DNA of 64,000 bases from Tubiluchus corallicola (lineage: Eukaryota; Animalia; Priapulida), in the NCBI GenBank assembly GCA_030141605.1, contig JAQGDQ010000111.1, positions 186,001-250,000 of the forward strand. Direction: 5' to 3'. The position numbers and the translations under genes are program-made. Shown here piece by piece: positions 4,466 through 64,000 of the stretch. The first letter of the stretch is position 1; each line of letters begins with the position of its first letter. A model generated the notes under the pieces. It saw only the letters and a list, made by a program, of their open reading frames with translations, had not been told where the DNA came from and searched no databases.

Positions 4466-5894
4466 CTGCTAATATTTGTGAATCTCTCCCAACTCTAGTA
4501 ATTTTTTTGCTACTTTACTGTAAATTGTTGTTCATGGGACTATAATATGGACTGACGTTTTCTGATGTTTATTTCATACGTAGCAGACTTTGTCTGATGT
4601 TAAAGAGCAACCATCCTTGTGTGACTAGCACCAATCATTCTTAAGATGCTTTACTTATAGCCTTTTTGTCATGCTGTAACCATCGTAGATCCATTGAATG
4701 CAGATATGTTCCAGCTTCAAGTCCAGCTGATTCGTCAAAAATCTTTTCACATTTTTTACAAAATTTAATTTTTGTGTTTAATTATGTTGGTATTGTTGTA
4801 TTGTGGACATCAGTTGCAGTTAATAACATAGAGTGTAAAGTGGCGTTTACTAGACACCTACAGAATAGCTACTTGTAAATAATTAATGGGAAATAGCTAC
4901 CGCAAAAATAATTGCATAACGCGGGATCTGATAAATAGGTGCATTGAAAACAATATAAACTGATTTTTATCTAGAAGGAATACGCGTAACGCATACGATG
5001 CTTGGTAAACACCACTTAATTTTCATTGCGTGCACCTTCTATCATCTTTCTAGTTTTAAATGTCTGTTTTGGTCCTGTTCTGATTTACGTAATACTGCTT
5101 AAATTTCATTGGTAGCACACGTTTTTGTGTCAGCTTTTCTCACTTTCTGAACTTTTGCAAATTCCAAAAATCTGCAAAGTGTTTCATCAGAAATTCTTGC
5201 TATCTGCATAAAGTGTGGCTGCTTCAGTGACATTGTTTTCTGGCTGCAAAATCTTCATTGGCAACATGTACTGTTGTGTTGTGTCGTAAACTAATAAGTT
5301 TTGTAGTCGGATCCAACTTCAATCTATCCTTTGATTAAAAATAGGACCAAAATGATCCAAGGATCAATACTATTCACAGAGATCTTAATCCAAGGATCAG
5401 CGTTCTTCACAAGGATCGTAATGGCAGGTCACATCTGCACTAACCCAGCTTGCAGCCCTTTTTATCTACATGTGCTGCATGTGTGCACTTTTTTTCTGCT
5501 GATGCCGCTGTGTGCAATGATTCGAGTCTTCACTGTCATGCAAGTTCACGTGAATCATGTCTGCCTTCCCCGTCCACTTCCAGCGGTAGTCCTGGTAAGC
5601 AGCGATTCTCACTGTCTGGAGGAGTCTCTATTGTAACATTTGAAACCCAAATTCAGCGGCTATTGTTGTTGTTATTGAAGTTAGGGGAGCAGGGAGAAGG
5701 TGAAGCCAGCTAGTGAGTAAAACATCGAACCGTCCACTTAGTCTGGTTTCCTACTTTTACTTTCCCCTTTTTGAGGTTTTGGGATGCTATACATCTGTTG
5801 GCTTTAGAAAACCTGATTTGGATTTTTGAGACAATCTAATTTACACACTAGTGTCATAGCACCAATTATTTCAGGTCTGTACTAATATTTATTG

Positions 5895-5897
5895 TGA

Positions 5898-5928
<31 letters not shown>

Positions 5929-6058
5929 GATGGTGATAGGATGATGATAGGACGATGATGATGATGATGGTGGTGATGATGTTTATGATGATAGAGGATG
6001 ATGATGATGGTGGTGGTGATGGTGATGATGATGATGATGATGATGGTGGTGACGATGG

Positions 6059-6104
<46 letters not shown>

Positions 6105-6120
6105 GATGATATCCATGATG
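5895..6120. repeat. (GAT/GGT)n trinucleotide microsatellite
   Basis: Direct reading; explains the poly-D/M/S/H/I ORFs. Confidence 0.97.
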
Positions 6121-7579
6121 ACATTAGTGGCATTGGTGGCAGCTGTAAAGACAAAAGACTAAATGATAGCAATGCTAGCGGCTATCATAGAACTATTATG
6201 ACAATGAGTTTAGTATAATAATTCAGATAAGTTCAGTTTTATATGACAAATGCTAAATGATAGCAATGCTGGCAGCTACCATTGCACAATAATAACGGTG
6301 CTGGTGACAATATTGATGCCACTGAGTTCAGTACAGTAACTGATATAATTTCAGTTAAAAAAAAGATTTCTCTTTTAACGAGTTTTGTTGGTGACCATAA
6401 AAATTTGGTAGGTGTATAACAATGACGGCATCATTAGTTCTTGAAGGGACATTATGTATTTTATAAAATGACATTTTGACCTATTGTATATAATATAATG
6501 TCTTGACCTAATTGCCACTATGTTATTATGAAATCTTAGAAATGTACTGGATGCAGTTTGCAGTGAGAGGTGGTGTGCGGTGAATAAGATACACAAAGAA
6601 TTGCTGAATGTTTACAATTACGTCTCGCTTAGAGAGACAGAAATCAGCGAGAGAAGCAAGTGATGTGTATGTTCAGTGAAAAAACCGTTTTAGCGCTTTA
6701 ATAAGCAATCTAACTCGACAAACACTTTTAGTTTAAATAAGAAATGCGCGCAATCAGTCACTGCGTTTAGTTAAAGCGTCTTGAGGAGGAGATGAGCGAA
6801 AGAAAAAAGAAAACAAGAAGCAAGAAAGATGTCACTTGTAGACAATTCTGAAACAAAGTAGTGTGAGAGGACTGGAGAAGAAAAAAGGATGAGTTGGAAA
6901 ATTCTGAAGCAAACTAGTGTGAAAAGGATAGACAGAGAAAGGGGGAAAGAAAGAACAGGAAAGGGAGAAACAGGAAAGGAACCTAACATAAGTCAGAGAA
7001 TCAGAGAAAAAAGGTCTGTGCTTCAGCAGTATTGTTTAAGAAGGAAGCGTAGGTGTAATGTGGTGAAACGAATGTTTTGTATATATATATATATATAAAG
7101 TAGTTCTTTTAAGGGCTCATACACGCACAATATAATGCACAATAAACTTGCCCTCACTGGGTGTTGACAGTATTATTAATATAGTAGACAATTAGCGATA
7201 TCAGCCCGAAAAAACACGTAGTAATTGGCGTAGCGAATTTCGAAAATTTCATCAATAGAATTGCCTCAGTAGAACTGGCAATTAAATTGTGAATGTGCAT
7301 TGTGTAGTAAAATTTAATTGTCTTTTGCAAGTGGCAGGTCCTTTTTTATAGTAGTACAGTCTGAGAAAAGTTCTTTTAATTTTACTTGCTGGTATCGATT
7401 ATTTTTAATCGTGAATTTTTGAACGAAATTATCAAACCCTATTTGCTCAAATTTGGAACTTGACCCAGTAAGTTACGACTTCTGGTTTGGAAACCAGTTT
7501 TTCGAATTCGAAATGGATTTGGTCTAAGTCGGCCCACACTATTTCCAAGTGGTCCTTGGCTTCTGAGTGGCTTCTTGGC

Positions 7580-12549: not shown

Positions 12550-12567
12550 CACACACGCACACGCACG

Positions 12568-12666
<99 letters not shown>

Positions 12667-12697
12667 CTACATCTACATCTACATCTACATCTACATC

Positions 12698-12755
<58 letters not shown>
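12550..12755. repeat. Compound microsatellite (CA)n-(CATCTA)n-(CATATA)n-(TA)n
   Basis: Direct reading. Confidence 0.97.
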
Positions 12756-12757
<2 letters not shown>

Positions 12758-13034
12758 CACTGCCTGCATCTACTGCATTATCTTTTGAAAACTCTGTTTT
12801 CTGTTCCAGTCTTAAAAGATTAATGACAGGCCATAGAAGTTGCACTTAGTGTCTTTGCCGAAAGCTCAACTTCTAATACGGTGTTTCCAACCTTTTTTTG
12901 CAAGAAATTGATGTTATCCAATGACTTTCTAGCTCAAAGGAAGTATGAACTGTATCATGGGTTTACATTTAATTTTTTGAAAAACCTATACCTCTTTTTA
13001 GTTCCGATAATGTCTTCCTTCTCTGTTCTTTTCT

Positions 13035-13076
13035 GTCTCTGTCTATCCCTCTCTGTCTCGTTCTCTCGCTCTCTCT

Positions 13077-13115
<39 letters not shown>
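13035..13115. repeat. (CT)n microsatellite within a longer polypyrimidine stretch
   Basis: Direct reading. Confidence 0.93.
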
Positions 13116-13117
<2 letters not shown>

Positions 13118-13892
13118 TCTTTCTTTCTTCCTTCCTCTCCTCCTTTCTCTCGGTTTTCTCTTTCACTTTTTTCTCGTCCGTGTTTCTCGCCGTCTCTCGA
13201 TTCTCACACCTCTCCTCTTTCCCCCCATGAGGCGCGTGCAGGTGCGCAGTTTGTGTACAGGTAACATCACGCTTGCTGCTTTTCTTACCTGTTCAGTTTG
13301 CCTACTCATTCGGCTTCTGTGTCGCTTTTCTCAGGTAAACATCGCTGGGTCATTACGTCGACCATTCAGCAAACTTGGGATCCGGCACAGAACTACCGTG
13401 CATTTCTTTACCAACCTTTCCGCCAAACAAAACCCGTCCATTTCGAACAAATCTAAACAAATAACCGGTGATCATCCGAATCGGACGAAATCCTCTTCCT
13501 CAACTGTTCTTATGCGGTGTGGTGGTTACTCGACAAACCTACCACTTACATGCAAAGTTATTAGCTGTAATTACAATGTTTTAAATTACCCGCCTTGTCT
13601 GCTTTTGACAAATAATGCATGATGCTGGGTAAACAGGAGTTTGTGTACTAAACAGACATCAATGCGTTTTTTTCTCACAATGGTCGTCATGGGCGAGTTT
13701 TGGTGTTTACACGTGATAGTTGAAGAACATTGTTGAAGAAGAGCTGAATTTCGCCGTCTCCGGTGCTTTTTTAATTCTTTTTATTGTGTAAAAAATGCCC
13801 CAACATAAATTATACAAGCTGTACTCGACGTGTTTAAAAACTCACTACGTACATTTTGCTTGGGATCCGTAAGTGATTGTATTAATGGAAGG

Positions 13893-17765: not shown

Positions 17766-19213
17766 TTAATTTATGCCTATATTATTGACATGTTGTTAAA
17801 GTTTTGTTACAATAGGCCTAATATCGTACTAGATAAAATATACGAATGAGGAGACAGTAAGCCCTGACTCTAAAAGCACAGCATAGCCGTAGACAAACAG
17901 ACACTCTCATTTTATATTATTTTTTGAGATTATAGGGATTCAAGGCTTTTTGTTAATGCCTCATTTTTGTGTCTGTTTTATTCTGTCTTCGTATAAAATA
18001 TTCCAGTTCACTGTGCTATAGAATGTTTTAGGTTCGACTCCGAGGAGTAGCTTGTTTTTTTCTTCGTTTTTAGCTCTGTTAAATATATTTTTCGAACATC
18101 ATGTCAGCCAATTATTATCAAACCTCAGGTTTTTATTGCTGTGATGGTAAAGCTTTATAAATCGCCGAATTAAATGTTTGAACAAATTGATTAGTCATAA
18201 GCCACTTATTATTCTTATTCTGGAAACCCTTTAAATCCTTTTCGCGAGTCTGATTTCCAAGCCGAAGAGAGGGTGAAAGGTCAACGATGTTGACCAATGA
18301 GCATCATCGTGTAATCTTTCCAGCTTTTGTTGTCAGGTTGCTTAGCAAAACCTTAACATTTTTAATGGAAAGCAATACACGCATTGTGATTGTGTTTTGT
18401 CAGGTTTGTCAGAGAGTATCTGTAACCGTGGAAGACAGATGGTCCGCAATAATAGCCTATTATGTTGTCATATCTCTATTATTCTTCACAAAAACTCGCG
18501 TTTCTGCATCAGGTAAACAGTTGCTTAGTAACGGATGCGACGTGACAGCAGCTAAACAAGTTTTTAGTGCGTGTCACTTTTCACTTTTCACTTTTCCTTC
18601 ACTTTCTTTTTTCTCTGTTAGTTTTAGCTACCTCTGTAACTGTAAATTTACTTGAAGAGGTGAGTTGTTGTCGAGTGTGTGGGTAGTCGCAGAAGTAGTG
18701 CAACCCCAGTAGTCGTTGAAGTCAAGGATACAAATGCATAAATCCTTTACAAGACTATATCGTTGCATGAGCAGCCTGGTATTTGCTGCAAGGAACTCTG
18801 GGAATCCCCGATGTTAACCTGTAGCCTTATTTTTATGAATACATTACTATGCTCTTGTGGCTCTAAAATCCTTGGTGGCAACCAGAAATATTAAAGAGAT
18901 ATTAGACTACATATATTCTTTGTAGTTATGTGCTAGAAGTGAGAAGAAAGCGTTTTATCATGTAAAATTTAAATGTGTCGTCTTACGAGTTTTAAATCAC
19001 CGAAACAATACGTATAACAGTAAGTAAAAGCGTTAACTGATTATCTCATAAAACTTTTCGTACAGTTCAACAATTAACAAGCATGACGTATTAATTTCAA
19101 ATTGCTAACTCATCGCTGTGTAAACAATTGGGGTGGCGCGAACATCAAGCACTACACCTCTTTGCATATTGTATTAGTATTACAAATCTGTATGTGTCTA
19201 CAAATAAATAAAT

Positions 19214-19662
<449 letters not shown>

Positions 19663-22600
19663 TGGGGACCTATTTAAACTATCCCGAGATGTCACATTAC
19701 ATATTCGACGTTACATTACAATTCTTAGATCCGCCCACAATGTATTATTTACGCTGCTTGCCGCTTCCGCATCAGATGAGTATTGTTGCTGATGCTGCAG
19801 CATGCGCGAGATGGGATGCTCACGGCGGCACACGTCTGCTTACACGTGATGCGAAGCGCACGTGAATCTGTCTCTCGCAGTCTTCATTAGTTTCAGCGTG
19901 CGACTGAGAACTTTCTATTTCCACGCCATGTAAAACCAGTTGAGAAATGAAATAGACTTGACTAAACTGCTCCAAGAAGTATGGCTGATCAAGAAAAACT
20001 GTGACTAAGCAGGTGTCAAAGCTACGGTTATTGGCTATAAGCGTTGCTGTATTTTAACTTGTAAAATAGCTGCTGCTTCTAGTGAAAAATTAACAAGGTG
20101 ACAAATTGCTAGCACCGCGTTGTTGTATGACTACATTTTGATTCTGGGATTCTGGTCCATCTAGCAGCTAGTGAATAGTTAGACAATCATTTATATGCAT
20201 GTAAATATGTATATGTCTATATCTGTAAAAGGAACAACCGCTTTGGGAAGATAGTTTTGCATTTCCATTTTAATGCGTGAACAGTGTGGTGAACAGGTAA
20301 AGCAATGTAAGTAAACTTTATATACAAAAGTTCAGCTTTCTGCACGATCATGTAATTGTTGTGGTCACCATTTTTGTGACTTTAGCAAAAGTATTGTTAA
20401 TTTGCCTCTATTAGAAATGACCATTTATTAGTTTTCTTGCTTATTTGACGTCTAATTTACGTTGATTGTCGTAGCATGTATAGGCAATGTCGTAGAAGTT
20501 AAACTAAAAATATCTTGATAACACCATAATAAATTATTACTGATTGGGCAGTGCTGGTGTATAGAATTAAACATTTTAAGATTTTATTGTTGCAATAACT
20601 AAAACGTTTTGAGGAGTTCTCGAAAAACGTTGATCTTACTAACTCTGTTTTTCTGTAATACTGATCTTTCGACTCTGTACTTGAACGTTTTCACCATGTA
20701 GGCTTATTTTTACTTTTTCTTTTAGTTAGTTGGTGGCGTGGTCCTGTTATCGAAAATATACACATGACAGCGAGAAGCAGTCTTAATTTCAATAAAAGGC
20801 GACTAATTTTGGCCAAATTTTTTAAACAGTCTTGAAACACGTTTGTTAGGTGGGTGGGAGAGGAAGGGAGAAGGATGATCTCAAGTAAAGTAAGCTTTAG
20901 TGTAAAAGAGTTTCTTGAAGTTGAATTTAATGGGAAAGGAGATGCAGGCATCTGGACAACAGAGCTTGTTAAAAATATGTGTGCAAATTTGTTATACGTG
21001 TAGTTTGGTACATGCTATGAGCTGCAAACAGAATTAATAATTATAATGGAACCTATAAATATAATTTATAATTACATTTTTTATGTCGTGTATGTTTTCT
21101 ACTGTTGCACTGAATATGATATTACTTACTTAACCGAGTTATGTAAATCCTACCCCAAAATTAACCCAGGACAAAACAGTGCGTGCAATGGATGCATATG
21201 TAAACTTTTTCGTAAATAAATGAATAGCTAAGATGGCCAAATGAAGAAAAGAACAACAAACAAAAGCGCATTCAATTTATATTTAATACATATTGAATCC
21301 ATATTGTACATAGTTATTATAAAAATAAAGAATTATAATAATAATTATTATTATTATATGAAAAAAAATAACAAAATTGATTGCTAAGCCACATCGTTTT
21401 CATCAACGAGAAGAAATCTGACATTCAGACATTCAGTTTGTCCTTTATTTGCTTACTTATATATCATCTCTTCACTGTTTAGAATAGTAAATTCAAATCG
21501 AGGTTTTTCTCAAAATAGCTATCTCTTGTTTACTAAAAACTCATAATGTGACCCATTGTTTTTGTTTTTGTTTTAATTCGAAGTCAAGATTGCATGACAT
21601 TCTAATTTTCTGAGATTTTACACTGATTGTTCATGCTGAGTTTCCTGTTCGTTCTGCAAGACCAAATGATCTCGCATATTGACGTTTTAGCTACAAGTGC
21701 ACTTTGGGTAAGCAATTTGATTCCATTAAAATAGGAAAACAAATTTTAAACAAGGATAAGCAATTATAATTCACGATGTTTACATGAAATTTTGTGATCA
21801 TCTGAGTGCAGTTAGTACAATTTTCGGTAGCACTAGTATTGCTGGTTGCATTTAACTGTGGCTTTAAGCTTCTATAAATTCAACCGCAGTGTTTATCTAA
21901 TAGCTTGTCACATTTTGAACACTTAATTGCATCTTGTTCATCTTGTTTATTTTTAGTGAATTTTCGCCATTTGTCTCTGTCTAGTTGTGTTCATTACTCA
22001 TAGCTGTATTTACTATAACTGAGCAGCGTGCACACGTTTGTGTAATTAATAAATGCCAGATTCCCTGATTACATGTTTGCAGGATTAATGTGTATCCGAA
22101 TTACTTCAAAATGCAGTGCTTGAATGTTAGATGATTTAAAGCGCATCTTCTATTTATGATTTTACACATCCTCGATAGGTGGCAGCTTTGTATAATTATT
22201 CTTTTATTATTACATGCGTTTTTACATGTTGCCTGATTACTATTATGAAATTATATTATAACATATTTGCATTTACAAGATTATTAGCGCAGTTCAAAAC
22301 AGTTGTTAGAAATGTAAGTGACATTATGTCGTTACACATAAAAGACACCTAGGAATAGGCTTTTATATCAACTATTACTACTAATATTTTCAAGGTTTTT
22401 TTTACACTATCAGTATCTATATAACTATTTGCGTGTATAGCATGTTCAGGTCTATACACGCCAGTTTACCTTATTACATGTTGCAGAATTAATGTCTGCT
22501 TGAATTGCTTAAAAAGCCCAGCCCGTGAACGTTTGATATTTTAAAAACCATCTTCTGTCTTTTAGTTCAATCATTCTCGTATAGGTGGCAGCTCCATATA

Positions 22601-38711: not shown

Positions 38712-40507
38712 CCATTGGGATTTGTGGATTATTAGGCGGGTGAGCTATAAGATCTACAAGCAATTACAGCCATCATTTTTTGTGTGTTAGAACATAAAGA
38801 TTACAAAGAAACAAATTATTCCGGATTGATTTTGTTACTCTTTTTTCTTTTCATAATTTCTTTTGCTTCTCTCACTCTAATCTCGCGTTTACTCAGTTTT
38901 CCATTACTTTTTTTAACTTTCATTCACTTTTATTTTTTCTTCCTCCTTTTGCTCATCTTTCCCGTTTTCATCAATTTCTCTCCAGTTTTCTTTTTTATTC
39001 TCCCTTACGTTTCACACTAATTTTCTTTTATACGTTCCTGTTGTCTTCTCTTTGGATTCTGCATTTTGCTCTTGAAATTTTGGTAACAAGAAAATGCACA
39101 AAAATGCAGTTTGCGCAATCTGTTTCTTTAGCTGTTTGAAAGCCATCTGCAGCATTCAGAATTGGAAATGAGCCTCCAAACCTGAGTCGCTTCCTTTCTC
39201 TCTAGCATTACAATAACCTATGCAAAAAATGAAGTTTGTAGTTTTGATCCTGCTGTGTGGTTAATACTTCACTTAATTATGTTGTCAAAAACACTTTAAA
39301 AATTAAAAAAAACGCAAGTTTTGAGCATGGTAACATTGTTTAACATGATCCTTTTAAAATGAAAATTTTTTCCAGCAAGACATCAATTGCGCTGGAGCAC
39401 TTTTTGCCTGGATACTGTGCTGAATGCACGTCCAAGTGACCCGCTACAAAATACTGACCTGAATGACCGATAATTCCCTAACTCTTTCAGCATCAAACTA
39501 TTCAGCTTAAGAGCTGCATCAAAAGTTAACTAAGTGTGGTGGGTACTGAGTGGCAATAGATTAAGTGGATCAGTTTTCTTAAGAGCAATCAGCAATCTAT
39601 GACAAAGATGGTGCTGCATGTAGAGAAGAAGCATTCTGTTTGTGCTTGCACTCATCACTATCAAAGCAGATTGATTATTATATAATTGCAAACTAAAATA
39701 TATCGCCTGTTTTATTTTGTTACATTTAAATGTGAAAAAAGACTTGCAATCATTTGCAAACTTTCGAAGAAGTAAGACAGGATGCGTAGTAACATTTCGC
39801 AATTTAAGAAAAATGCATAATCGGGCCTAGCAGAGCCTAAATGTCATGTCAGCCTCTATTCTTAACCATAATGCACTACGCCTGGCTGCTCCACTTTGTG
39901 TTTGCTTTCCCTCGCGCAACAAGCGTTGATCTCTGATTCTGATTCTGCAGCTCGCGTCAGTCATTCCGCCGATACCGAGCAACACACGTTCGAAGATTGT
40001 TTTAGCTACCCTTGTCTCACGTGAATCATAATGATGTTACCTATTTGTGTGGTGTTTGCTTAAAATTATCTATTGGGTGTTTTTGTCTGCTTAATTTTTG
40101 TTACCATTTTGGACGGTTGGTTATGAGATGTTCGTCACCTGGCTGAGTTTTGATCTCTTTCAGTACGACTGCTTCCTATCTTGCAAAGAAGACTTCCTGA
40201 CCTAGATACCTGGTTGAAGTCGATGTGTTTGTGTTTGTTTGCCTGTGTAATTAGTGCGCGTAAAGTTAATTAAGTTATATCTTATTAAGCCAGCTGCCGT
40301 TTATTTACCTGGACAATTAAATTACGCAACGCGGTTAAATAAGCCTGAATGGAGGCGCGCAGAGATGGAAAGGATGATGTTTGATGGGGTAAATCTGTTT
40401 AGCAAAAGATTCTCTTTCTGTCGTGTGAAACTGAAAACATTTAAGACTTGTTATATGAAAATGTAAATTATTGACCTGATCATTATTATTATAAAAATAT
40501 AATCCTA

Positions 40508-40707
<200 letters not shown>

Positions 40708-43700
40708 GTCCCCGCCATCTCTTCTTTCTGTCCTCTTCTCCCTATTTTCCTTCTCTCTCCTCTCTTCATTCAGGTTTCCTTGGATCATCACGTTTTTCTT
40801 ATTTATATATTTTAACTTTAGTGTATTGCTACAATGCTTTATTTATGAATACAATATATACCATGCACTTTCACCACTTACACGGTGAATTATTTAGTAA
40901 GCCCTGCTGAATAATAGACCCATTTACTTACTGACCTTATTTCGCTCTATTCACCGCACTGCCCTAGCAATAAATGCTTTCGCTTTTACTTCGAACTTTT
41001 TAATTATTATCTTTTTCTAAGCGAAAGTCTGTGCTTTTAGTTCGTATAGTTTCGAATTATCATCATTTTATCATTAGTTACAGCACTTTCCCAAATCTAA
41101 ATCCGTGTTTTTATTCTTCATTAACTGCTTTTTTGGCTTATTGTTAATCACGCTTTAGTCACAAAGTGCAAAATTTTGCAATTCAGTGTGTCCATTTACT
41201 ATTGGCCTAAGAGACAAAAGTCCAGGTTTTATGCATGGACTTGTTTTTCCCGGTTTCATGTATTACAGCTTGCATTGCAACCGTTTTTCAAGCTCTATGT
41301 TTTCTGCCCCAGATTTCAGTGCATTATTAAATTACCTCTGCTAAATAAAGGGCCTAAGTAACGCCTCTTAGGCCAGGCTTTTGATCAACTAAGTCTATGT
41401 AATCCAGTTAATAGGTGTCAGTCTAGCAAGGCAACATGATTTCATATCAGAAGTCAACCGCCCGTCTTTTCCACCCCTGGCTCACTGCCTTTCACTGTGC
41501 AAGTCTTTCACTGTGCAAGTTCAAAATTATAAATTATTAACTAGTTCCTACTTATTAACGGACCTAGTTATTGTCCTTGTAGTACTGCTGCATGGATTAT
41601 TACATGCATACGTAGCAAAATTATGGACTAGCGAGGCAACAGCATCTATTTGTGTATGTCGGTGATGTATTGATTGCTTTGTGTACGTGTCGTGTTTAGT
41701 GAAGCCAGTTGCTGTTGTTTACGTGACGGTGGGCTTCATTCGATATGAATGAAGGTTATGCGGTTTGAGCTGATATGGAATATTGTTTGTGAGGGGAAGG
41801 GAGAGTATGAGAGTGTGACACAAACAAATGCTGGTTAGGTTAGGGTTTAACGCAGTAAGTTTAGAAAGTAATATGAGCTACAATATGGAAATAGAAAATT
41901 GGCATAATGAAATTTATTTAAGAAATATTAAGTTAAAGTTAAATAGTTCAAGTAATCAGTCACTCAGCAGTCCAGCTAGTCAGTTTCTCAACCAAAAAAA
42001 TCTGTTCTGTTGGTAGGTCTTCCTGTTTGTTAAACTTTTTGTCTGTGAAAAACTTTGTAGATGAGTATTTTATTCTAATCTGCCTTGATTTAGTTTTACT
42101 GATAATACTGATTTAGTTTTATTTTTGCCGCGCTGTAGATCGTCTCATAATTTTACATTAGATAAAAAATAAAGATTTGACCATTAACATATGAAATATC
42201 AAAAAAAGTAAGTGTGTTGAAAAGATAATGTTAATAAACTTGACCTTTTGTTTAAACATTCCTGATACAAGAAATGCTTGTTTTCGCTGGAATGGGTTGC
42301 TATTGCTCCTGGTTGCCTTGAGTTGAGCTTAAGGTTAAATAGTTAGTGTACTGTGTTGTGCCATTAACTAGCACGATTCTAGCTTCTGTGCTCGTTTTTG
42401 TCCACCGTTTTTCCATTTTTCTTTATAATTGTTTTTCTCGTTAGTCGCCCATTGCTTGTGTAATCACGTCGCTATGGCAATGGGAGGCTGCTGACTCGCA
42501 ATTAACGCTTCTGTTTGGGCCCGGCGAGGCAATTAAGTATCTTCTTTGTACTGCTGGTTTATCTGTTCAATGCAAGAAGATTCTGACACTTGCCGCGTTC
42601 CTCATGGTGCGCGCTTGCACCTAAATTGTTTGATTATTCCTATTTTCTAGCCACGGCGTTATTATTTTGTTTACGTGCTTTTGTTTAACAGCTGTAAAAT
42701 TATTCACGTGACGCCTTTGTGTGTTTACTGCTAAACAAATCAGACAAAGTATGATGAACTTTTTTGTGCATGAAAGTAAGACACAACAAGCATTATGCAA
42801 GTTTGGGATTTCTTTTGTTTTGTTACTGCAGGAGTTTTTATGAGTATTTTTGTTGTATAAGTATGGTCAGTCACTTTTTCACTGCAGATGGATTGGGTAT
42901 AGAAAACTCATTTTGCACGCCCTTGCGCAGACCAAACTCAGGAGCTGTAGAAAAACCATTATTTTGCAGCTAAACAGAAATACTTGGTGAATTGCAACTA
43001 GGTTCACAAAACATTCTAACATGTTAATAATTGCAACTATTTGTACAAAAAGAAAATGCGTACATTTATCACTTAAATATGTTGACTTATAAAGAGAGGT
43101 CACAATGCACTTAGGCCTATATTATACAACATTTTAGCAACACTTGCCATACTGAACCTTATAATCTGCTGATTTCTGTCTGTTTGCGCTACTCTGATAA
43201 CAAACACCGACGATTTTTATCCATGTTTACATTTGGTCTGTTAGCCTGTTTACTTGTAAACATTGCAAAAATGCATGTCACGTACAGGTGACCTCCATGT
43301 CAGGCTGTTCCAAATAAGGCATTAGGTTCTTCAAGTGCCCTGCCACTGTAATAAGCTTTTTTTCCCGAAATAGACGGCACTTGTAATGCTAGGCTAAAGC
43401 CCTCCCATGAATTAAACTTTTGGGCATTTAAAATCAATTAGCAATTCTGTTTATAATAAAATTGAGATTTTTTTAAGTATTAAGTGCAAAAGGCTTTATC
43501 TTGATATATTCTATGTGAAAAAATTAGGTCCCATTGACTCGAGAATATAGGTCCCATTGACTCGAGAATATGCACAATTATTCTATATATAAAAATGAAA
43601 TATTTGTAGTCTTTCCTGGGTACAGTATTCCGAAAGATCTGCAGTATAGAGAAACAGAGCCTGTGCGCAGCTTTGGTTAATGCACTAAAGCCAAATTAAC

Positions 43701-48962: not shown

Positions 48963-50046
48963 ACATTCGAGTACAAAGTGTCCTCATACATCATATATGT
49001 ATATATAATGTACATATATTTGCCTGTGTGTTTCTTGCCTAATCACGTTTTGGCTTCATAGGTGCGTGATTTCCCATTATGCATGTGATCAGGCAAGAAA
49101 CACACAAACAATGACACACACAAGCAAGAAACAAAATTTAGTCATCTGAAGAAACAGTGGATTTATTAGCTAATTAGTTGTCTAATATTTTGTAAGGACT
49201 TATTGTAATTACTTTCGACGGAAACTGACAGGCGCTGCTTTTCTTCGGTCGATGTGACGTCACTGGTGGAAGATTTGGCGTTTAAAATGAGAGCACCCAA
49301 GCTCTCATCGCAACTTTAAATGAGACGTCTATCACTTGTCATACGTTTATTACTAAATTCTTCTAACATTTTCCTCGAATATCTAAATAAGCCTAACTTC
49401 TCAGAAAGCTGTCTTTTCCTTTAAGCTCCAGCAGATTAGCGGGGTCTAGCTTTTTAGGCTTGGCGGTGGGACGCTTGGGAAATTGCAAACTAGCTATTTG
49501 TTTATTTGCAAAACAAACAAAAAGGTAACCAAAACAAAGAACGAATATAAAAAAATTGCCATATAATGTCGTCAAAAGTGTTTTAGCAGTATACATAGTA
49601 TTTATGTATTTATATACTATGTATATAATATTATATAGTATACTAAGTGGGGCTGTACCCATCAAACGCGACAGCCACGCAGCTGGACGTGGGGGGTGAC
49701 AGCTCTTCTAAACAGCGGGTTATTGACTAGTCAGGATGTTTACAAAATCACCACGTTTAGAGTAACGCACAACAGATACAAACATCAAGCAAACAACCAT
49801 TGTACAGCACATCTATGGAAAATTTCCTGTTTTTCTAGCTGATTTGTGTGAATATCGAACCACAACTGTTGCTGAAATTGCACTCCATAATGTTATCAGA
49901 CTAAACAAGTCTCGATAAACATTGGCCTGATGAGGCAATTATTAATAGTGCTCATAAAAATTTAACAGGGTTGGTGGTGTTATTGAAGCTGCAAAAAATC
50001 TATAATTATTACAAATAACGCTATCTTGAAAGAAAAAAACGTGAGT

Positions 50047-50362
<316 letters not shown>

Positions 50363-55104: not shown

Positions 55105-55210
55105 GTCACAATGACTCTCCAGTTTCCATCACCAATGTACTGTACGGACACGGAGTGTGTCGGTGGCCCGGGTGTGACACAACATGCAAAGACGAGAATG
55201 CCTTTCTAAC
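55105..55210 (+). CDS. FoxP: FoxP coding exon, N-half of C2H2 zinc finger (phase 1-2)
   Basis: ttgcag acceptor, gtaaat donor; (G)HNDSPVSITNVLYGHGVCRWPGCDTTCKDENAFL, the diagnostic FoxP LYGHGVCKWPGC motif. Confidence 0.96.
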
Positions 55211-56107: not shown

Positions 56108-56195
56108 GCATCTCAATGAGGAGCATCAACTGGATGATCGGAGTACAGCACAAGCCCGTGTTCAAATGCAGGTTGTTAATCAGCTAGATTTGCAG
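56108..56195 (+). CDS. FoxP: FoxP coding exon, C-half of zinc finger and start of leucine zipper (phase 2-0)
   Basis: attttag acceptor, gtaggc donor; (T)[29 protein letters not shown], diagnostic FoxP [16 protein letters not shown] motif. Confidence 0.97.
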
Positions 56196-58438: not shown

Positions 58439-58515
58439 AAATACAAAGAAACCGAGAGTTTTATAAAAATGCTGATGTTAGACCTCCGTTTACGTATGCA
58501 TCCCTAATTAGACAG
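58439..58515 (+). CDS. FoxP: FoxP coding exon, start of forkhead domain (phase 1-0)
   Basis: attttcag acceptor, gtgagg donor; (E)[25 protein letters not shown]. Confidence 0.97.
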
Positions 58516-59636
58516 GTGAGGATAAGACATGATTTTACAGTTTCTCAATGTTTTGGCTTTTAATCATTACTTTAGTAGAGATTCTAGAGCTTTTTGTAAT
58601 GCGAAATCTTAATTTGTAAGCTCAGTTAGACTGAACTCGCTGCTATAAATTTTGTAAACTAACTTTAACTGAAAAAAAAGAAACTTGGCCGAGTTTATAA
58701 TGTTGATGGTTAAGACAGGGCCTAAACTCAGTTAATTGTCTAAACTAATCTTTTAAGACGAGATACTGAACCAATAGAAGCTGCTTACCATTGCCTGACA
58801 TGTCTGACATGCTGCTTTAATGAAAGAAGTGACTGGGCAGTAAGGCAAATAAAATCATCCCGAAGCAGTATTCCTAGTGGTTACATATCCATTTAGTAAC
58901 TAGGCACAATTTTGTTTAACTTTTGTCACCTAGTGCACACTACTCACTTATGCTCTTTACTGAAATGTGAAAAAAGTGCAATTAGCCTGAGATATATACA
59001 GATTTAGGAAGTTTGGAAAATAATCTTATGCAACTGAACTATGTATCCACAAGGTGCTCGAAAGCTTCCTTATTTTATCTGTGCATTTGTACGTTTTTTG
59101 TGGTCTTCTCTGTCATTAATGCGCTTTGGTTGACCGACTTTATATGAGGTTCGCCATTGTTTTGATTATATAAGGTTTTCTTTAATTTTTCATGAGTTTC
59201 GTCATCACCATGAATACCGTGATGTTCCACAAAAACTGACTACTCATTTTGTAAATTGACCTTGTGTCAGGTGAACAGAGTGCACGAAAGAGCATTTTTG
59301 ACTTCAAACCCACATAAGGAAATAACGCCAGTTTCTAACACTAGAGAGATACACTGGTCAATTCTTTTGTGGGATAACTCTTGCACAGTTTCCTGTGATC
59401 ATTTACAAGTTCATCGTCCTGAAAGGGAAGACGGGTTAACTTGTGTGACAAAACTACATTTACCCAAAAATTGGAAACTGTTTGCACATAGTTCCCTGCC
59501 CCACCCTCTTAGCTTGATTCTGACTGCATGTCACATTATCCATGCAGCTTTCGTAACATCACTTCTGCTTAGTATTCACGCCTTGTCGTCATCTCTTTTT
59601 TCCACTCTCTAAAAACCCTGTTTTCTTATCCTCTCC

Positions 59637-59743
59637 TGTTTACACGCCCTTGTTTATGCGTCCCTGCTCGTTTTGTTTGTGCCCAGACGATTGTTTATCT
59701 TGCATCTACTGGGTTGTTTATCTTTGCCAAGCGCTTTGTTTAC
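59637..59743. promoter_or_regulatory. Co-oriented forkhead motif array
   Basis: TGTTTAC at 59637 and 59737; TGTTTAT at 59651, 59692 and 59715. Confidence 0.5.
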
Positions 59744-60970: not shown

Positions 60971-61072
60971 GCGATCATTGAAGCGCCGAATAAAGAACTC
61001 ACCCTAAACGACATTTACAACTGGTTTCAATCCAACTTTCTTTACTTCCGGAAAAACGTGGCCGCCTGGAAG
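60971..61072 (+). CDS. FoxP: FoxP forkhead middle exon, copy A (putative mutually exclusive; phase 0-0)
   Basis: tctttttcag acceptor, gtactg donor; 102 nt, [34 protein letters not shown]. Confidence 0.93.
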
Positions 61073-61133
61073 GTACTGCACTTTTGTTTTTGTTCTATTT
61101 AATGGTGTTTTTTACGACATTGTGTATATGTAG

Positions 61134-61235
61134 GCTATTATTGAAGCTCCCTTCTATCAGTTGACACTGAGTGAAATTTATCAATGGTTTATGAGGAATT
61201 TTGCATACTTTCGCCAAAATACTCACACTTGGAAG
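61134..61235 (+). CDS. FoxP: FoxP forkhead middle exon, copy B (putative mutually exclusive; phase 0-0)
   Basis: tgtag acceptor, gtacta donor; 102 nt, [34 protein letters not shown]; same length and phase as copy A. Confidence 0.92.
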
Positions 61236-62480
61236 GTACTAACTTTTGTTTATATTATGTGAATTTAACAGTGGAGTTTCGTTCAGTAAAAGTACAGGCA
61301 AATAGGAAACATAGATGTACAGCTGTAGTTCATGTAGAAGACTAAGAGCAGTACCTGTTTAGTAGAAATATTAGTTTCTAACAGTAGAGTCTGTTTTATT
61401 TTATGCAAAATAACCTTCTGTATGTGTGCAGCTTAAAACTGTATAATTAAATTTTCTTACACTTGTGTAATAACAGTAAATTGTTGTTGGCAATTTTGGC
61501 TACAAAAAAGTTTTTCAGTCATACAATGATGTTTCATTCTCGACTTAAATCACTTAGTAAATTTTCTACATGTTTTATGGACCGAGACATTGAGAATAAT
61601 GTGCATTTATTTGTAGGGTACTTTTTAACCCATGCGTGTGTTGCCTTGGCTGTGCAAGTAGTTATTTTTATTAGCCACCTGATGGCGGCACAGAGAAGTG
61701 TATTAGAAATGAGACCATTCCTTCCCTCTTCCTCTATAATGCCATATCTTCTTTTAAAAACATTGTAAAATGAATTTATCCACACTGCAAGTTAGTATTA
61801 TATTTGTCAAAATGCTGATATTCGGCTGCTTTTTGTTGCAGTTTTAACTTATTTCACGTAATTATTTTGTTTAATTAACAGTTGAATGAAGTCATGTTCA
61901 TTTCTGCCACAAGTTTCAAATCTCCATTTTGCTGAATGATAACATCGTCCAGTAAAATACTGATAGAACGCTGTTTACAAAATGTTGCAATAAGTGGGAA
62001 TGTCCACGATTCTCTAAGAAGCTTTAACTTAGTAGGGAGGCATAAGAAGAAATTTTTTGGTAAAAGAGGATAGGATAGTGATGACCCGCAAAGGAGGGAA
62101 TCTTTCTAAATAGGCAGAGTTGATATGTCTGCTTTATCTTACAGCTGTGTTATTTTTTGTTTGTTTTGCAAGAATATTTTTTGCCGGGAAGTTTCAGTCC
62201 AGCGAAATATTGTACATGCAATTTTTTGTTGAGTTGTACTTTAAATTTAAAAATTCTTGTTTTGCCTTGTGTGAAGAAATATTTACAAAGTTTTTTTAAG
62301 TAAAATTGATTTTTATTTGCTGCTTCTAATATGCTCGAACTTCAACAGAAAACTTGTGCATGAAACCCCATGCTATAGCTGCTTATTGTAGTGTTGTTTT
62401 TGTCCAGAATAGCTGTTGCTTGGCTGCCATTGGCTTCTTATAGCTTTGCTATTTGCTAATATTTGTTTCTCATCCCGTAG

Positions 62481-62605
62481 AATGCTGTGCGGCACAACCT
62501 AAGCCTTCATAAGTGTTTTATGCGTGTGGAGAATGTTAAAGGAGCGGTGTGGACGGTCGACGAGATCGAATTCTACAAACGACGGCCTCAGAGGATGTCT
62601 AGCGG
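62481..62605 (+). CDS. FoxP: FoxP forkhead recognition-helix exon, canonical type (copy C; phase 0-2)
   Basis: tttctcatcccgtag acceptor, gtaggt donor; [41 protein letters not shown](G). Confidence 0.96.
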
Positions 62606-62747: not shown

Positions 62748-62893
62748 AACGCCATACGTACCAACTTGTCGCTGCATAAATGTTTTGTAAGAATCGAGGA
62801 CGAATTTGGATCCTTCTGGATGGTCGATGACGACGAATTTGCATTGCGGCGCCATCTAACACGTGGCCGACCGCGCAAATACATCGATGTACA
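62748..62893 (+). CDS. FoxP: FoxP forkhead recognition-helix exon, alternative type (copy D, FOXP1 exon-18b-like; phase 0-2, or stop at 62895-62897 if unspliced)
   Basis: ttctaac branch site, long pyrimidine tract, ctctcag acceptor; [48 protein letters not shown](Q); ca|gtaaga donor in the same phase as copy C. Confidence 0.94.
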
Positions 62894-64000
62894 GTAAGAG
62901 TACCATTCAAAAATTTAGACGTGGAAAATTCACAAGTGGAAATCTTCACCACATATTAGTTATCAGTCTACAGACTGTTCTTTTAATGCATTTCCTTGTC
63001 GACCAGAGCAAAATAAGTAATGTGTCTGAAGTTGAGAAAGATCCAGAATTCCAAATTCGCGATCTTGCAAGATATTTGCGACTGACTCATTATTTTGTTG
63101 TTATTTATTTTCTTAGTTGTTGTGTTATAAATTTTCTTCTGGGTGTGGTGAAGGTTTCTGTGCTTGCTTATAAGTGTATTCAGCATGTTGTGTGTAACAA
63201 ATTCTAATTAAATGGATCATGCATGGAGCGAGATACTGTTTCACATACCGAGTTGAATCGATAATAATAATTGGGTCCATCGTACATCTATTAAAGGCAT
63301 GCAGTGAAGTAGTTGAATTGCTTTTTGTGGATATGTTTTGTTGTAACTCAGTTTTATGTGTAGATTAAATAAAATATCTGGCATAGTTTGTACGTGCCAG
63401 GCAGATGAGCATGTTTATTATTACATGTAAGTGCGACTTCGCTAATGTACAATGGACTGTATTTTGTTGGTAGTAGATGTTTGTTCTGCAAAATTTTATA
63501 AATGATAAATATTGTCAATAAATTCTAATCTAATCTGATGTATAACAGGTATAGATCATTCTAGCATCCTGCAGTATTTCGGCTATTGTTTAGTGTGTTT
63601 ATCAATTATTGTTCTAGATCAGTGTACTTAACCTATACGTGCCGGCATCCCCATGGGCGCGAGATATTGTTTTTGAGGGTGTGAGAATTTTCTTAAAGAC
63701 AGCATTTTCGTTTTGCTCTTCGTCATTTAGTGTTTCATAGTTTTTTTTTGTTTCAAGTTGTCAAGTCGTTGAATTTCTTTATACTTTGACTCTACATTCT
63801 TACAATCTTCATCTTTGTCCTTGTTTGGTTATGCATCAGTTTTGGCATAACCTTCTATGCAGATATACGTAGACGTGTGAAAGGTGATTATAAGTCTTCA
63901 GCACTGGAGGTGCAGTATGCAATTTAAAATTTCAGTGGGTGCCTGCATAAAAAATGTTAAGCTTCACTGTTCTAGATTATGTACACTTTTTGCTTTCTGA

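What the first reader, a model, noticed from the sequence alone, without database searches (positions are those of the whole stretch)
61040..61205. Exon A/B choice swaps the domain-swapping hinge residue (FLY vs FAY)
Seen: copy A has Leu (ctt, 61040-42) and copy B has Ala (gca, 61203-05) in the F-x-Y-F motif; the residues just before helix 3 also differ (KNVAAWK vs QNTHTWK). Established: this position is Pro in most Fox proteins and Ala in vertebrate FOXP2 (A539), where it permits 3D domain-swapped dimers. Inference: splicing may tune domain-swapping propensity and DNA bridging.
Basis: partly seen in the sequence, partly recalled or inferred. Interest (0 to 1): 0.7.

Follow-up and report, generated by a model that had tools for sequence, protein, structure and literature searches.

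The report
Second swappable exon pair in FoxP
An invertebrate FoxP gene carries two intact side-by-side versions of the exon that builds the middle of its DNA-binding domain, likely used one at a time; the leucine/alanine difference at the 'domain-swap' hinge is real but likely matters less than a change on a nearby surface loop that is predicted to affect how the protein bridges DNA.

Summary
Observation confirmed. A spiralian-like FoxP gene has two 102-nt phase-0 copies (A 60971-61072, B 61134-61235; 21 of 34 residues alike, synonymous sites saturated) of the forkhead H1-H2-H4 exon, 61 nt apart, upstream of the known bilaterian C/D pair. Spliced contigs of a close relative join the upstream exon to A and B to C; mutual exclusion is inferred, not seen. 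Leu (A) and Ala (B) sit at the FOXP2 A539/FOXP3 A372 hinge. The swap reading is weak: published swap suppressors are Pro, Gly and Ser; Leu is a helix former; A500L is mild in a FOXP1 mutational scan; FOXP1-4 with their linker are reported monomeric, and FOXP3 bridges DNA as a non-swapped ladder. A stronger candidate is B's Tyr at the FOXP3 Arg356 bridging position (0 of 93 other segments; largest scan effect). Tandem copies of this exon also appear in a copepod gene model and an unnamed nematode-like ORF; six paper searches found no description.

The parts
55105..55210 (+). FoxP zinc-finger exon (LYGHGVCRWPGC)
   Evidence: tblastn to fetched FoxP proteins; GT-AG borders
56108..56195 (+). FOXP coiled-coil exon 1
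   Evidence: Pfam FOXP-CC 41.1 bits
57506..57902 (+). Coiled-coil end and linker exon; best matches are mollusc FoxP proteins
   Evidence: covered by spliced X2 contigs
58439..58515 (+). First forkhead exon FH1 (…[12 protein letters not shown]), phase-0 donor that feeds A/B
   Evidence: X2 joint FH1 to A with GT..AG ends
60971..61072 (+). Exon copy A, 102 nt, phase 0-0, forkhead H1 end to H3 start
   Evidence: spliced to FH1 in X2 record 10
60989..60994 (+). Copy A codons 7-8, Asn-Lys: keeps the basic residue equivalent to FOXP3 Arg356 / FOXP1 Lys484
   Evidence: numbering from W366-A372 register
61040..61042 (+). Copy A codon 24, Leu, at the H2/H4 hinge (FOXP2 A539, FOXP1 A500, FOXP3 A372)
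61073..61133 (+). 61-nt GT-AG spacer between A and B; branch-point-like TTAAT at +27 to +31
   Evidence: the other seven introns measured are 536-2455 nt
61134..61235 (+). Exon copy B, 102 nt, phase 0-0
   Evidence: 3' half spliced to C in X2 record 11
61152..61157 (+). Copy B codons 7-8, Phe-Tyr: replaces the conserved basic residue at the FOXP3 Arg356 position
   Evidence: Phe 0 and Tyr 0 of 93 other segments at these positions; K484Y row
61203..61205 (+). Copy B codon 24, Ala, at the hinge
62481..62605 (+). Exon C (NAVRHN…), canonical second forkhead half, phase 0-2
   Evidence: spliced from B in X2
62748..62893 (+). Exon D (NAIRTN…), the known bilaterian isoform-B / FOXP1-ES-type exon; likely donor GTAAGA at 62894, same phase as C
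   Evidence: Santos et al.
58509..58527 (+). FH1 exon end and donor, predicted to pair with 59624-59642
59624..59642 (+). Intronic arm complementary to the FH1 donor

Best explanation
A and B are two diverged, intact tandem copies of one forkhead exon that are likely spliced one at a time, so that, with the known C/D pair, this gene would make up to four forkhead domains, and the A/B choice is predicted to act mainly through surface residues (B's Phe-Tyr in place of the acidic-basic pair at the FOXP3 Arg356 bridging position, and Gln for Arg/Lys before helix 3) rather than through Leu versus Ala at the hinge. Shown: layout, reading frames, splice sites, divergence, FH1-to-A and B-to-C joints in a close relative. 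Inferred: mutual exclusion (likely helped by the 61-nt spacer, since joint inclusion stays in frame and would escape decay), and the effect on multimer formation and DNA bridging, which rests on vertebrate FOXP3/FOXP1 data.
For: Same length, phase and profile span. pS 0.90 against pN 0.28, 12 of 21 shared residues with different codons: old duplication with both frames kept. All core residues (L10, L12, I15, Y16, W18, F19, F23, Y25, F26, W33) are kept in both copies, as expected if each must complete a domain alone. X2 contigs skip introns at GT..AG and use both exons. Any branch point in a 61-nt intron lies under about 50 nt from the donor, the distance used as the steric criterion for human mutually exclusive exons. 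Position 8 is Lys/Arg in 79 of 93 other segments and never Tyr; it maps to FOXP3 Arg356, a ladder interface residue whose mutation (R356E among those made) impaired TnG binding and DNA bridging. Of the substitutions at all 13 differing positions looked up in the FOXP1 scan, K484Y is the largest (abundance -0.77, binding +0.52); next E483F (-0.39, +0.24), E490D (-0.30, +0.08), R504Q (+0.10, -0.25), A500L (-0.21, +0.12).
Against: No contig shows FH1-to-B, A-to-C or A-to-B; the two joints seen also fit a transcript holding A and B in tandem. X2 is only guessed to be RNA, differs at 27 of 606 aligned letters, and gave 3 contigs. Introns of 56 nt are spliced in human cells (listing), so 61 nt is no absolute block, and this animal's minimal intron size is unknown. 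Position 8 is non-basic in 12 of 93 other segments, His in 2, so loss of the basic residue is not unique. Ladder bridging has not been shown for any invertebrate FoxP in what I read. The FOXP1 scan used an isolated domain in bacteria with single changes on a human background; it measures neither swapping nor bridging.
Confidence: 0.5

Rival explanations
1. One reading: exon choice sets Leu or Ala at the hinge and thereby tunes domain-swapped dimer formation and DNA bridging.
For: Position is the established hinge. Leu is rare there (2 of 93 segments). Small changes nearby shift swapping (FOXP2 Tyr40Phe about 10-fold, as reviewed). In the FOXP1 scan abundance at position 500 rises with low helix propensity (Spearman 0.49, p 0.03, 19 variants, scale recalled), so Leu could shift the monomer's stability. 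A bulky side chain at a swap-interface position could matter sterically.
Against: Known suppressors are Pro, Gly, Ser, not helix formers. Cys is common there. A500L is mid-ranked, 8th of 19 for abundance and 10th for binding. FOXP1-4 with linker were monomeric, and swap-suppressing A372G/S had little to mild effect on FOXP3 activity. Bridging structure fits only the non-swapped fold.
Confidence: 0.15
2. The two isoforms are biochemically near-equivalent; both copies persist because each is spliced at a useful level, and the 13 differences are tolerated drift.
For: Most single substitutions are near wild type in the FOXP1 scan. Both copies sit on long branches (0.39-0.68), which fits relaxed constraint. 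Each copy carries residues unseen elsewhere, scattered along the exon.
Against: Retention of two copies past synonymous saturation is easier to explain if they differ in use. K484Y and R504Q are not neutral in FOXP1.
Confidence: 0.2
3. A and B are both included in tandem, giving a forkhead with a 34-residue internal repeat.
For: Only FH1-to-A and B-to-C joints were seen; record 10 stops at the last base of A. Joint inclusion is in frame. The copepod RefSeq model XP_023335178.1 carries both copies in one chain, though this may be an annotation artefact.
Against: No A-to-B joint seen either. Core residues are kept through the whole of both copies, although a tandem product would need only part of each. 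The spacer is 61 nt against 536-2455 nt for the other introns.
Confidence: 0.12
4. One copy is a decaying pseudo-exon or an assembly duplicate.
For: Both copies are divergent from the family consensus. The 5' half of B was not covered in X2 (a hole proves nothing).
Against: 59% nucleotide identity excludes an assembly duplicate. No stops or frameshifts, pN far below pS, splice sites of both used.
Confidence: 0.03

Closest known systems
Bilaterian FoxP isoA/isoB exon pair, vertebrate FOXP1 exon 18a/18b (FOXP1-ES) (Santos et al. 2011, PMC3002244, parts 2-4 of 6 read; Gabut 2011 seen only through PMC4978528 passage)
   Same: Tandem duplication of a forkhead exon in FoxP giving two DNA-binding domains; that pair is present here as exons C and D.
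   Different: The known pair encodes the second half (helix 3 onward) and changes base-reading His to Thr. A/B encodes the part before it, including the hinge; Santos et al. treat that part as constant and say both fly isoforms share all swap residues. C+D together would shift the frame; A+B would not.
FOXP forkhead domain swapping via the Pro-to-Ala hinge (review PMC8508939, passages and section 4 part 1; Leng et al. bioRxiv 10.1101/2022.02.08.479534, passages and section 6)
   Same: Same residue; isolated A- or B-type domains may well swap in vitro, as neither has Pro.
   Different: No natural splice switch at this residue is described in what I read; Leu was not among the tested residues; swap dimers were not the form found when the linker was present.
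FOXP3 ladder multimer on TnG repeats (Zhang et al. 2023, PMC10719092, passages)
   Same: The Arg356 interface position lies inside the duplicated exon; A keeps a basic residue.
   Different: Shown only for vertebrate FOXP1-4; B has Tyr there; no isoform switch of this interface is described.
Mutually exclusive exon clusters held apart by donor-to-branch-point proximity (Hatje et al., bioRxiv 10.1101/133215, passages)
   Same: Equal-length homologous exons inside a folded domain, short spacer, two clusters in one transcription-factor gene (as TCF3, CUX1).
   Different: Human threshold; branch point not mapped here; exclusion not shown by reads.

Membership tests
FoxP subfamily | Forkhead domain of FoxP type | tested here: met
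   Pfam Forkhead on A, B, C; best solved-structure hits FOXP4, FOXP1, FOXP2, FOXP3
FoxP subfamily | C2H2 zinc finger and FOXP coiled coil upstream | tested here: met
Known bilaterian isoA/isoB exon pair | Duplicated exon encodes the second half of the forkhead with His-to-Thr change | tested here: not met
   True for C/D, not for A/B, which cover profile positions 14-48
Mutually exclusive exon cluster | Tandem homologous exons, same length and phase, intact splice sites | tested here: met
Mutually exclusive exon cluster | Each exon spliced into transcripts | tested here: met
   A acceptor and B donor used in X2 contigs of a close relative; A donor and B acceptor not seen in use
Mutually exclusive exon cluster | Both bypass joints present and no joint between the copies | tested here: inconclusive
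   None of FH1-B, A-C, A-B seen among 3 contigs
Mutually exclusive exon cluster | A mechanism of exclusion (frame shift, branch-point proximity, competing RNA pairings) | tested here: inconclusive
   No frame shift; 61-nt spacer fits proximity; no docking/selector set found, local fold z 0.67
Hinge-controlled domain-swap switch | Alternative residue sits at the A539/A372 hinge | tested here: met
Hinge-controlled domain-swap switch | One state is a low-helix-propensity residue (Pro, Gly, Ser) | tested here: not met
   Leu and Ala against the tested suppressors; propensity scale recalled
Hinge-controlled domain-swap switch | Different monomer-dimer equilibrium | not testable with these tools
   needs purified protein
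FOXP ladder DNA-bridging multimer | TnG-repeat binding and bridging that depend on the Arg356-type residue | not testable with these tools
   only the residue mapping was done

The most novel reading that the evidence does not exclude
FoxP has repeatedly duplicated the exon that carries its self-association surfaces (here, in a copepod and in a nematode-like animal), and splicing switches the protein between a DNA-bridging form and a non-bridging form, independently of the older C/D switch that changes base reading: a two-by-two code for looping and specificity in one gene.
Probability: 0.2. Interest if true: 0.75.

Novelty: new variant of a known kind. Interest (0 to 1): 0.45.

Why it matters
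Whether FoxP proteins bridge DNA by domain swapping or by non-swapped multimers has been disputed. A natural pair of isoforms that differ only in the 34 residues holding both the swap hinge and the ladder interface residue gives a direct, evolution-made test of the two models. It also extends the known FoxP splicing scheme from one exon pair to two, with signs that the same exon was duplicated in other lineages. If the isoforms prove equivalent, it is a modest addition to FoxP gene structure.

Tried and rejected
No RNA holder was listed for the stretch; X2 came by species label. A protein search with exon B plus flank found no candidate (weak evidence). No B-like or A-like close homologue appeared: best identity 74%. 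Trees of the 34-residue segments are unresolved: A with B not rejected (p-AU 0.27), B with the divergent copepod and nematode-like copies not rejected (0.14), B joins the copepod copy only with 46/31 support and both are long branches, so shared versus separate origin is open; P0245 (multi-forkhead, not FoxP), P0006 (mis-modelled) and segments under 31 residues were left out. Competing docking/selector pairings around A and B: none convincing; A acceptor and A donor beat 20 of 20 shuffles only narrowly, B, C and D sites did not; local fold z 0.67. P0001 has whole-domain repeats and P0122, P0261 partial repeats; not counted as exon pairs. The Atlas search only returned FOXP-CC clusters. No fold or complex was predicted: the spliced domains are not contiguous in the window and such models would not give a swap equilibrium. 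The phylum was not determined. Paper searches for a described duplication of this exon: (none found); subscription papers such as Schatton 2018 (bees), Stroud 2006, Chu 2011 and Perumal 2015 were not seen, nor the supplement of Santos 2011, which lists annelid and mollusc gene structures and could bear on novelty.

Full report
What is there. The window holds the 3' part of a FoxP gene on the + strand: zinc finger, coiled coil, linker and a forkhead split over several exons. Its variable exons match mollusc and annelid FoxP best, so the animal is likely a spiralian; the phylum was not determined. After the first forkhead exon (FH1, 58439-58515) come two homologous 102-nt phase-0 exons, A (60971-61072) and B (61134-61235), 61 nt apart, and then two versions of the next exon, C (62481-62605) and D (62748-62893). 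C/D is the known bilaterian pair of Santos et al. 2011 (PMC3002244; parts 2-4 of 6 read). A/B is a second pair, upstream of it.

The observation. Codon 24 is CTT (Leu) in A and GCA (Ala) in B. It aligns with the Ala of solved FOXP2, FOXP3 and FOXP4 chains and with the Pro of FOXP1 chain 2kiu; the papers name it A539 in FOXP2 and A372 in FOXP3, with Pro in most other Fox proteins. The residues before helix 3 differ as stated. In all, 13 of 34 residues differ.

Both copies are alive. They share 60 of 102 bases; pS is 0.90 and pN 0.28, like the ancient C/D pair (0.82, 0.32), so the duplication is old and both frames were kept. All hydrophobic core residues survive in both. In run X2 (guessed RNA, 3 contigs laid, 27 of 606 aligned letters different, so a close relative or distant population) one contig joins FH1 to A and another joins B to C, both at GT..AG ends, with no cover in introns. 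No contig shows FH1-B, A-C or A-B. Mutual exclusion is therefore inferred: from equal length and phase, from full core conservation in both copies, and from a 61-nt spacer, against 536-2455 nt for the seven other introns measured, that puts any branch point under about 50 nt from the donor, the steric criterion used for human clusters (bioRxiv 10.1101/133215, passages). Against this, joint inclusion would stay in frame, the two joints seen also fit an A+B transcript, and a 56-nt human intron is spliced (search listing).

How widespread. Of 450 proteins fetched, 386 carry the motif (the set is the top of three searches plus cluster members, heavy in insects and molluscs). Two hold two copies of just this segment: the copepod Eurytemora model XP_023335178.1 (P0121) and an unnamed genomic ORF that reads through a spacer between two copies and groups with nematode-like sequences by my recall of that motif (P0246). 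In 11 isoform clusters of molluscs, crustaceans and flies (105 proteins listed, 81 with the region), 0 of 11 show two versions of the A/B segment while 6 of 11 show both C and D. So the duplication is patchy, not general. Trees on 34 columns cannot tell one origin from several.

Does Leu versus Ala tune swapping? Probably little. In FOXP3 the hinge works through helix propensity: Pro, Gly and Ser shifted the isolated domain to monomer (bioRxiv 10.1101/2022.02.08.479534, section 6). Leu is, after Ala, among the best helix formers (Pace-Scholtz scale, recalled). Invertebrate FoxP tolerates Cys (23 of 93 distinct segments), Leu (2, in a cluster that includes a bdelloid rotifer protein), Ser and Met there. 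In a published scan of the human FOXP1 domain (PMC13759329, passages and rows of supplement files 1 and 6; files 13-15 not searched) A500L gives abundance -0.21 (FDR 0.15) and binding +0.12 on a 0 to -1 scale, mid-rank among 19 variants; abundance at this site correlates with low helix propensity (rho 0.49, p 0.03), placing Leu away from Pro/Gly/Ser. That assay does not measure swapping, and a steric effect of Leu at the swap interface is not excluded. More basic: FOXP1, 2, 3 and 4 were monomeric with their linker, A372G/S had little to mild functional effect, and FOXP3 bridges DNA as a ladder that fits only the non-swapped fold (PMC10719092, passages). A review that favours swapping as functional was also read (PMC8508939), so the question is not closed in print.

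A better candidate. Counting from W366-A372, exon position 8 is FOXP3 Arg356, named as a ladder interface residue; interface mutants, R356E among them, lost TnG binding and bridging. A has Lys; B has Tyr, preceded by Phe. Position 8 is Lys/Arg in 79 of 93 other segments, His in 2, non-basic in 12, never Tyr. Among the substitutions at all 13 differing positions, K484Y has the largest effect in the FOXP1 scan (-0.77, +0.52) and is the largest binding residual of the 20 changes at that site; R504Q (B) lowers binding (-0.25), T508A (A) removes a listed DNA contact with no loss (+0.12). I therefore think the A/B choice most likely alters surface self-association and affinity. This step is inference from vertebrate proteins; ladder bridging is not shown for invertebrate FoxP in what I read.

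Novelty and verdict. Six searches and passages of PMC11998571, PMC4978528, PMC3685541 and PMC6219247 gave no description of a duplicated first-half forkhead exon in FoxP; subscription papers and the Santos supplement were not seen. The scan had no note on this place or sequence. It is a new variant of a known kind: the exon pair is real and seemingly undescribed, the hinge residue is correctly identified, but the swap-tuning role is a minority reading (about 0.15). Interest 0.45.

Noticed in passing
window 58489-58527 and 59624-59662: The FH1 exon end and donor, which feed A/B, can pair with an intronic arm 1.1 kb downstream (core 18 of 19 pairs; -33.3 kcal/mol; 0 of 100 shuffles as strong, z -3.5; six other donors not significant). 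The site was picked after seeing the repeat list, so the test is post hoc; conservation untested.
   Followed up: partly
window 61073-61092 and 61236-61255: The intron starts after A and after B are alike (16 matches in a 21-column alignment, U-rich), although synonymous sites of the exons are saturated; other donor pairs score far lower. Possibly a shared splicing element.
   Followed up: partly
window 62748-62899: Exon D has a strong donor (GTAAGA at 62894) in the same phase as C's, so D is likely internal; read through, it ends at TAA 62895-97. D was not covered in X2.
   Followed up: partly
P0121 (Eurytemora carolleeae XP_023335178.1): Gene model holds two tandem copies of the A/B-equivalent segment, one canonical and one divergent; likely an unrecognised alternative exon pair in a copepod.
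   Followed up: partly
P0246 (unnamed ENA ORF, 118 aa): Two copies of the same exon separated by about 39 codons of intron-like sequence in a nematode-like FoxP.
   Followed up: partly
P0122 (Odontomachus brunneus isoform X22) and P0261: Partial repeats of the same exon segment in an ant isoform and an unnamed ORF.
   Followed up: no
P0275, P0301, P0336, P0360-P0362: FoxP proteins with Leu at the hinge (FLYF); the cluster of P0336 includes a bdelloid rotifer protein.
   Followed up: partly
window 61031: X2 differs here (T to G), turning Ser21 of exon A into Ala; the listed difference in B (61226) is silent.
   Followed up: no
window 5880-6220, 12550-13170, 19150-19700, 40480-40800, 50020-50290: Long simple-sequence repeats (CA, TA, GA and trinucleotide arrays) upstream of the mapped exons; no long coding frames there.
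   Followed up: no
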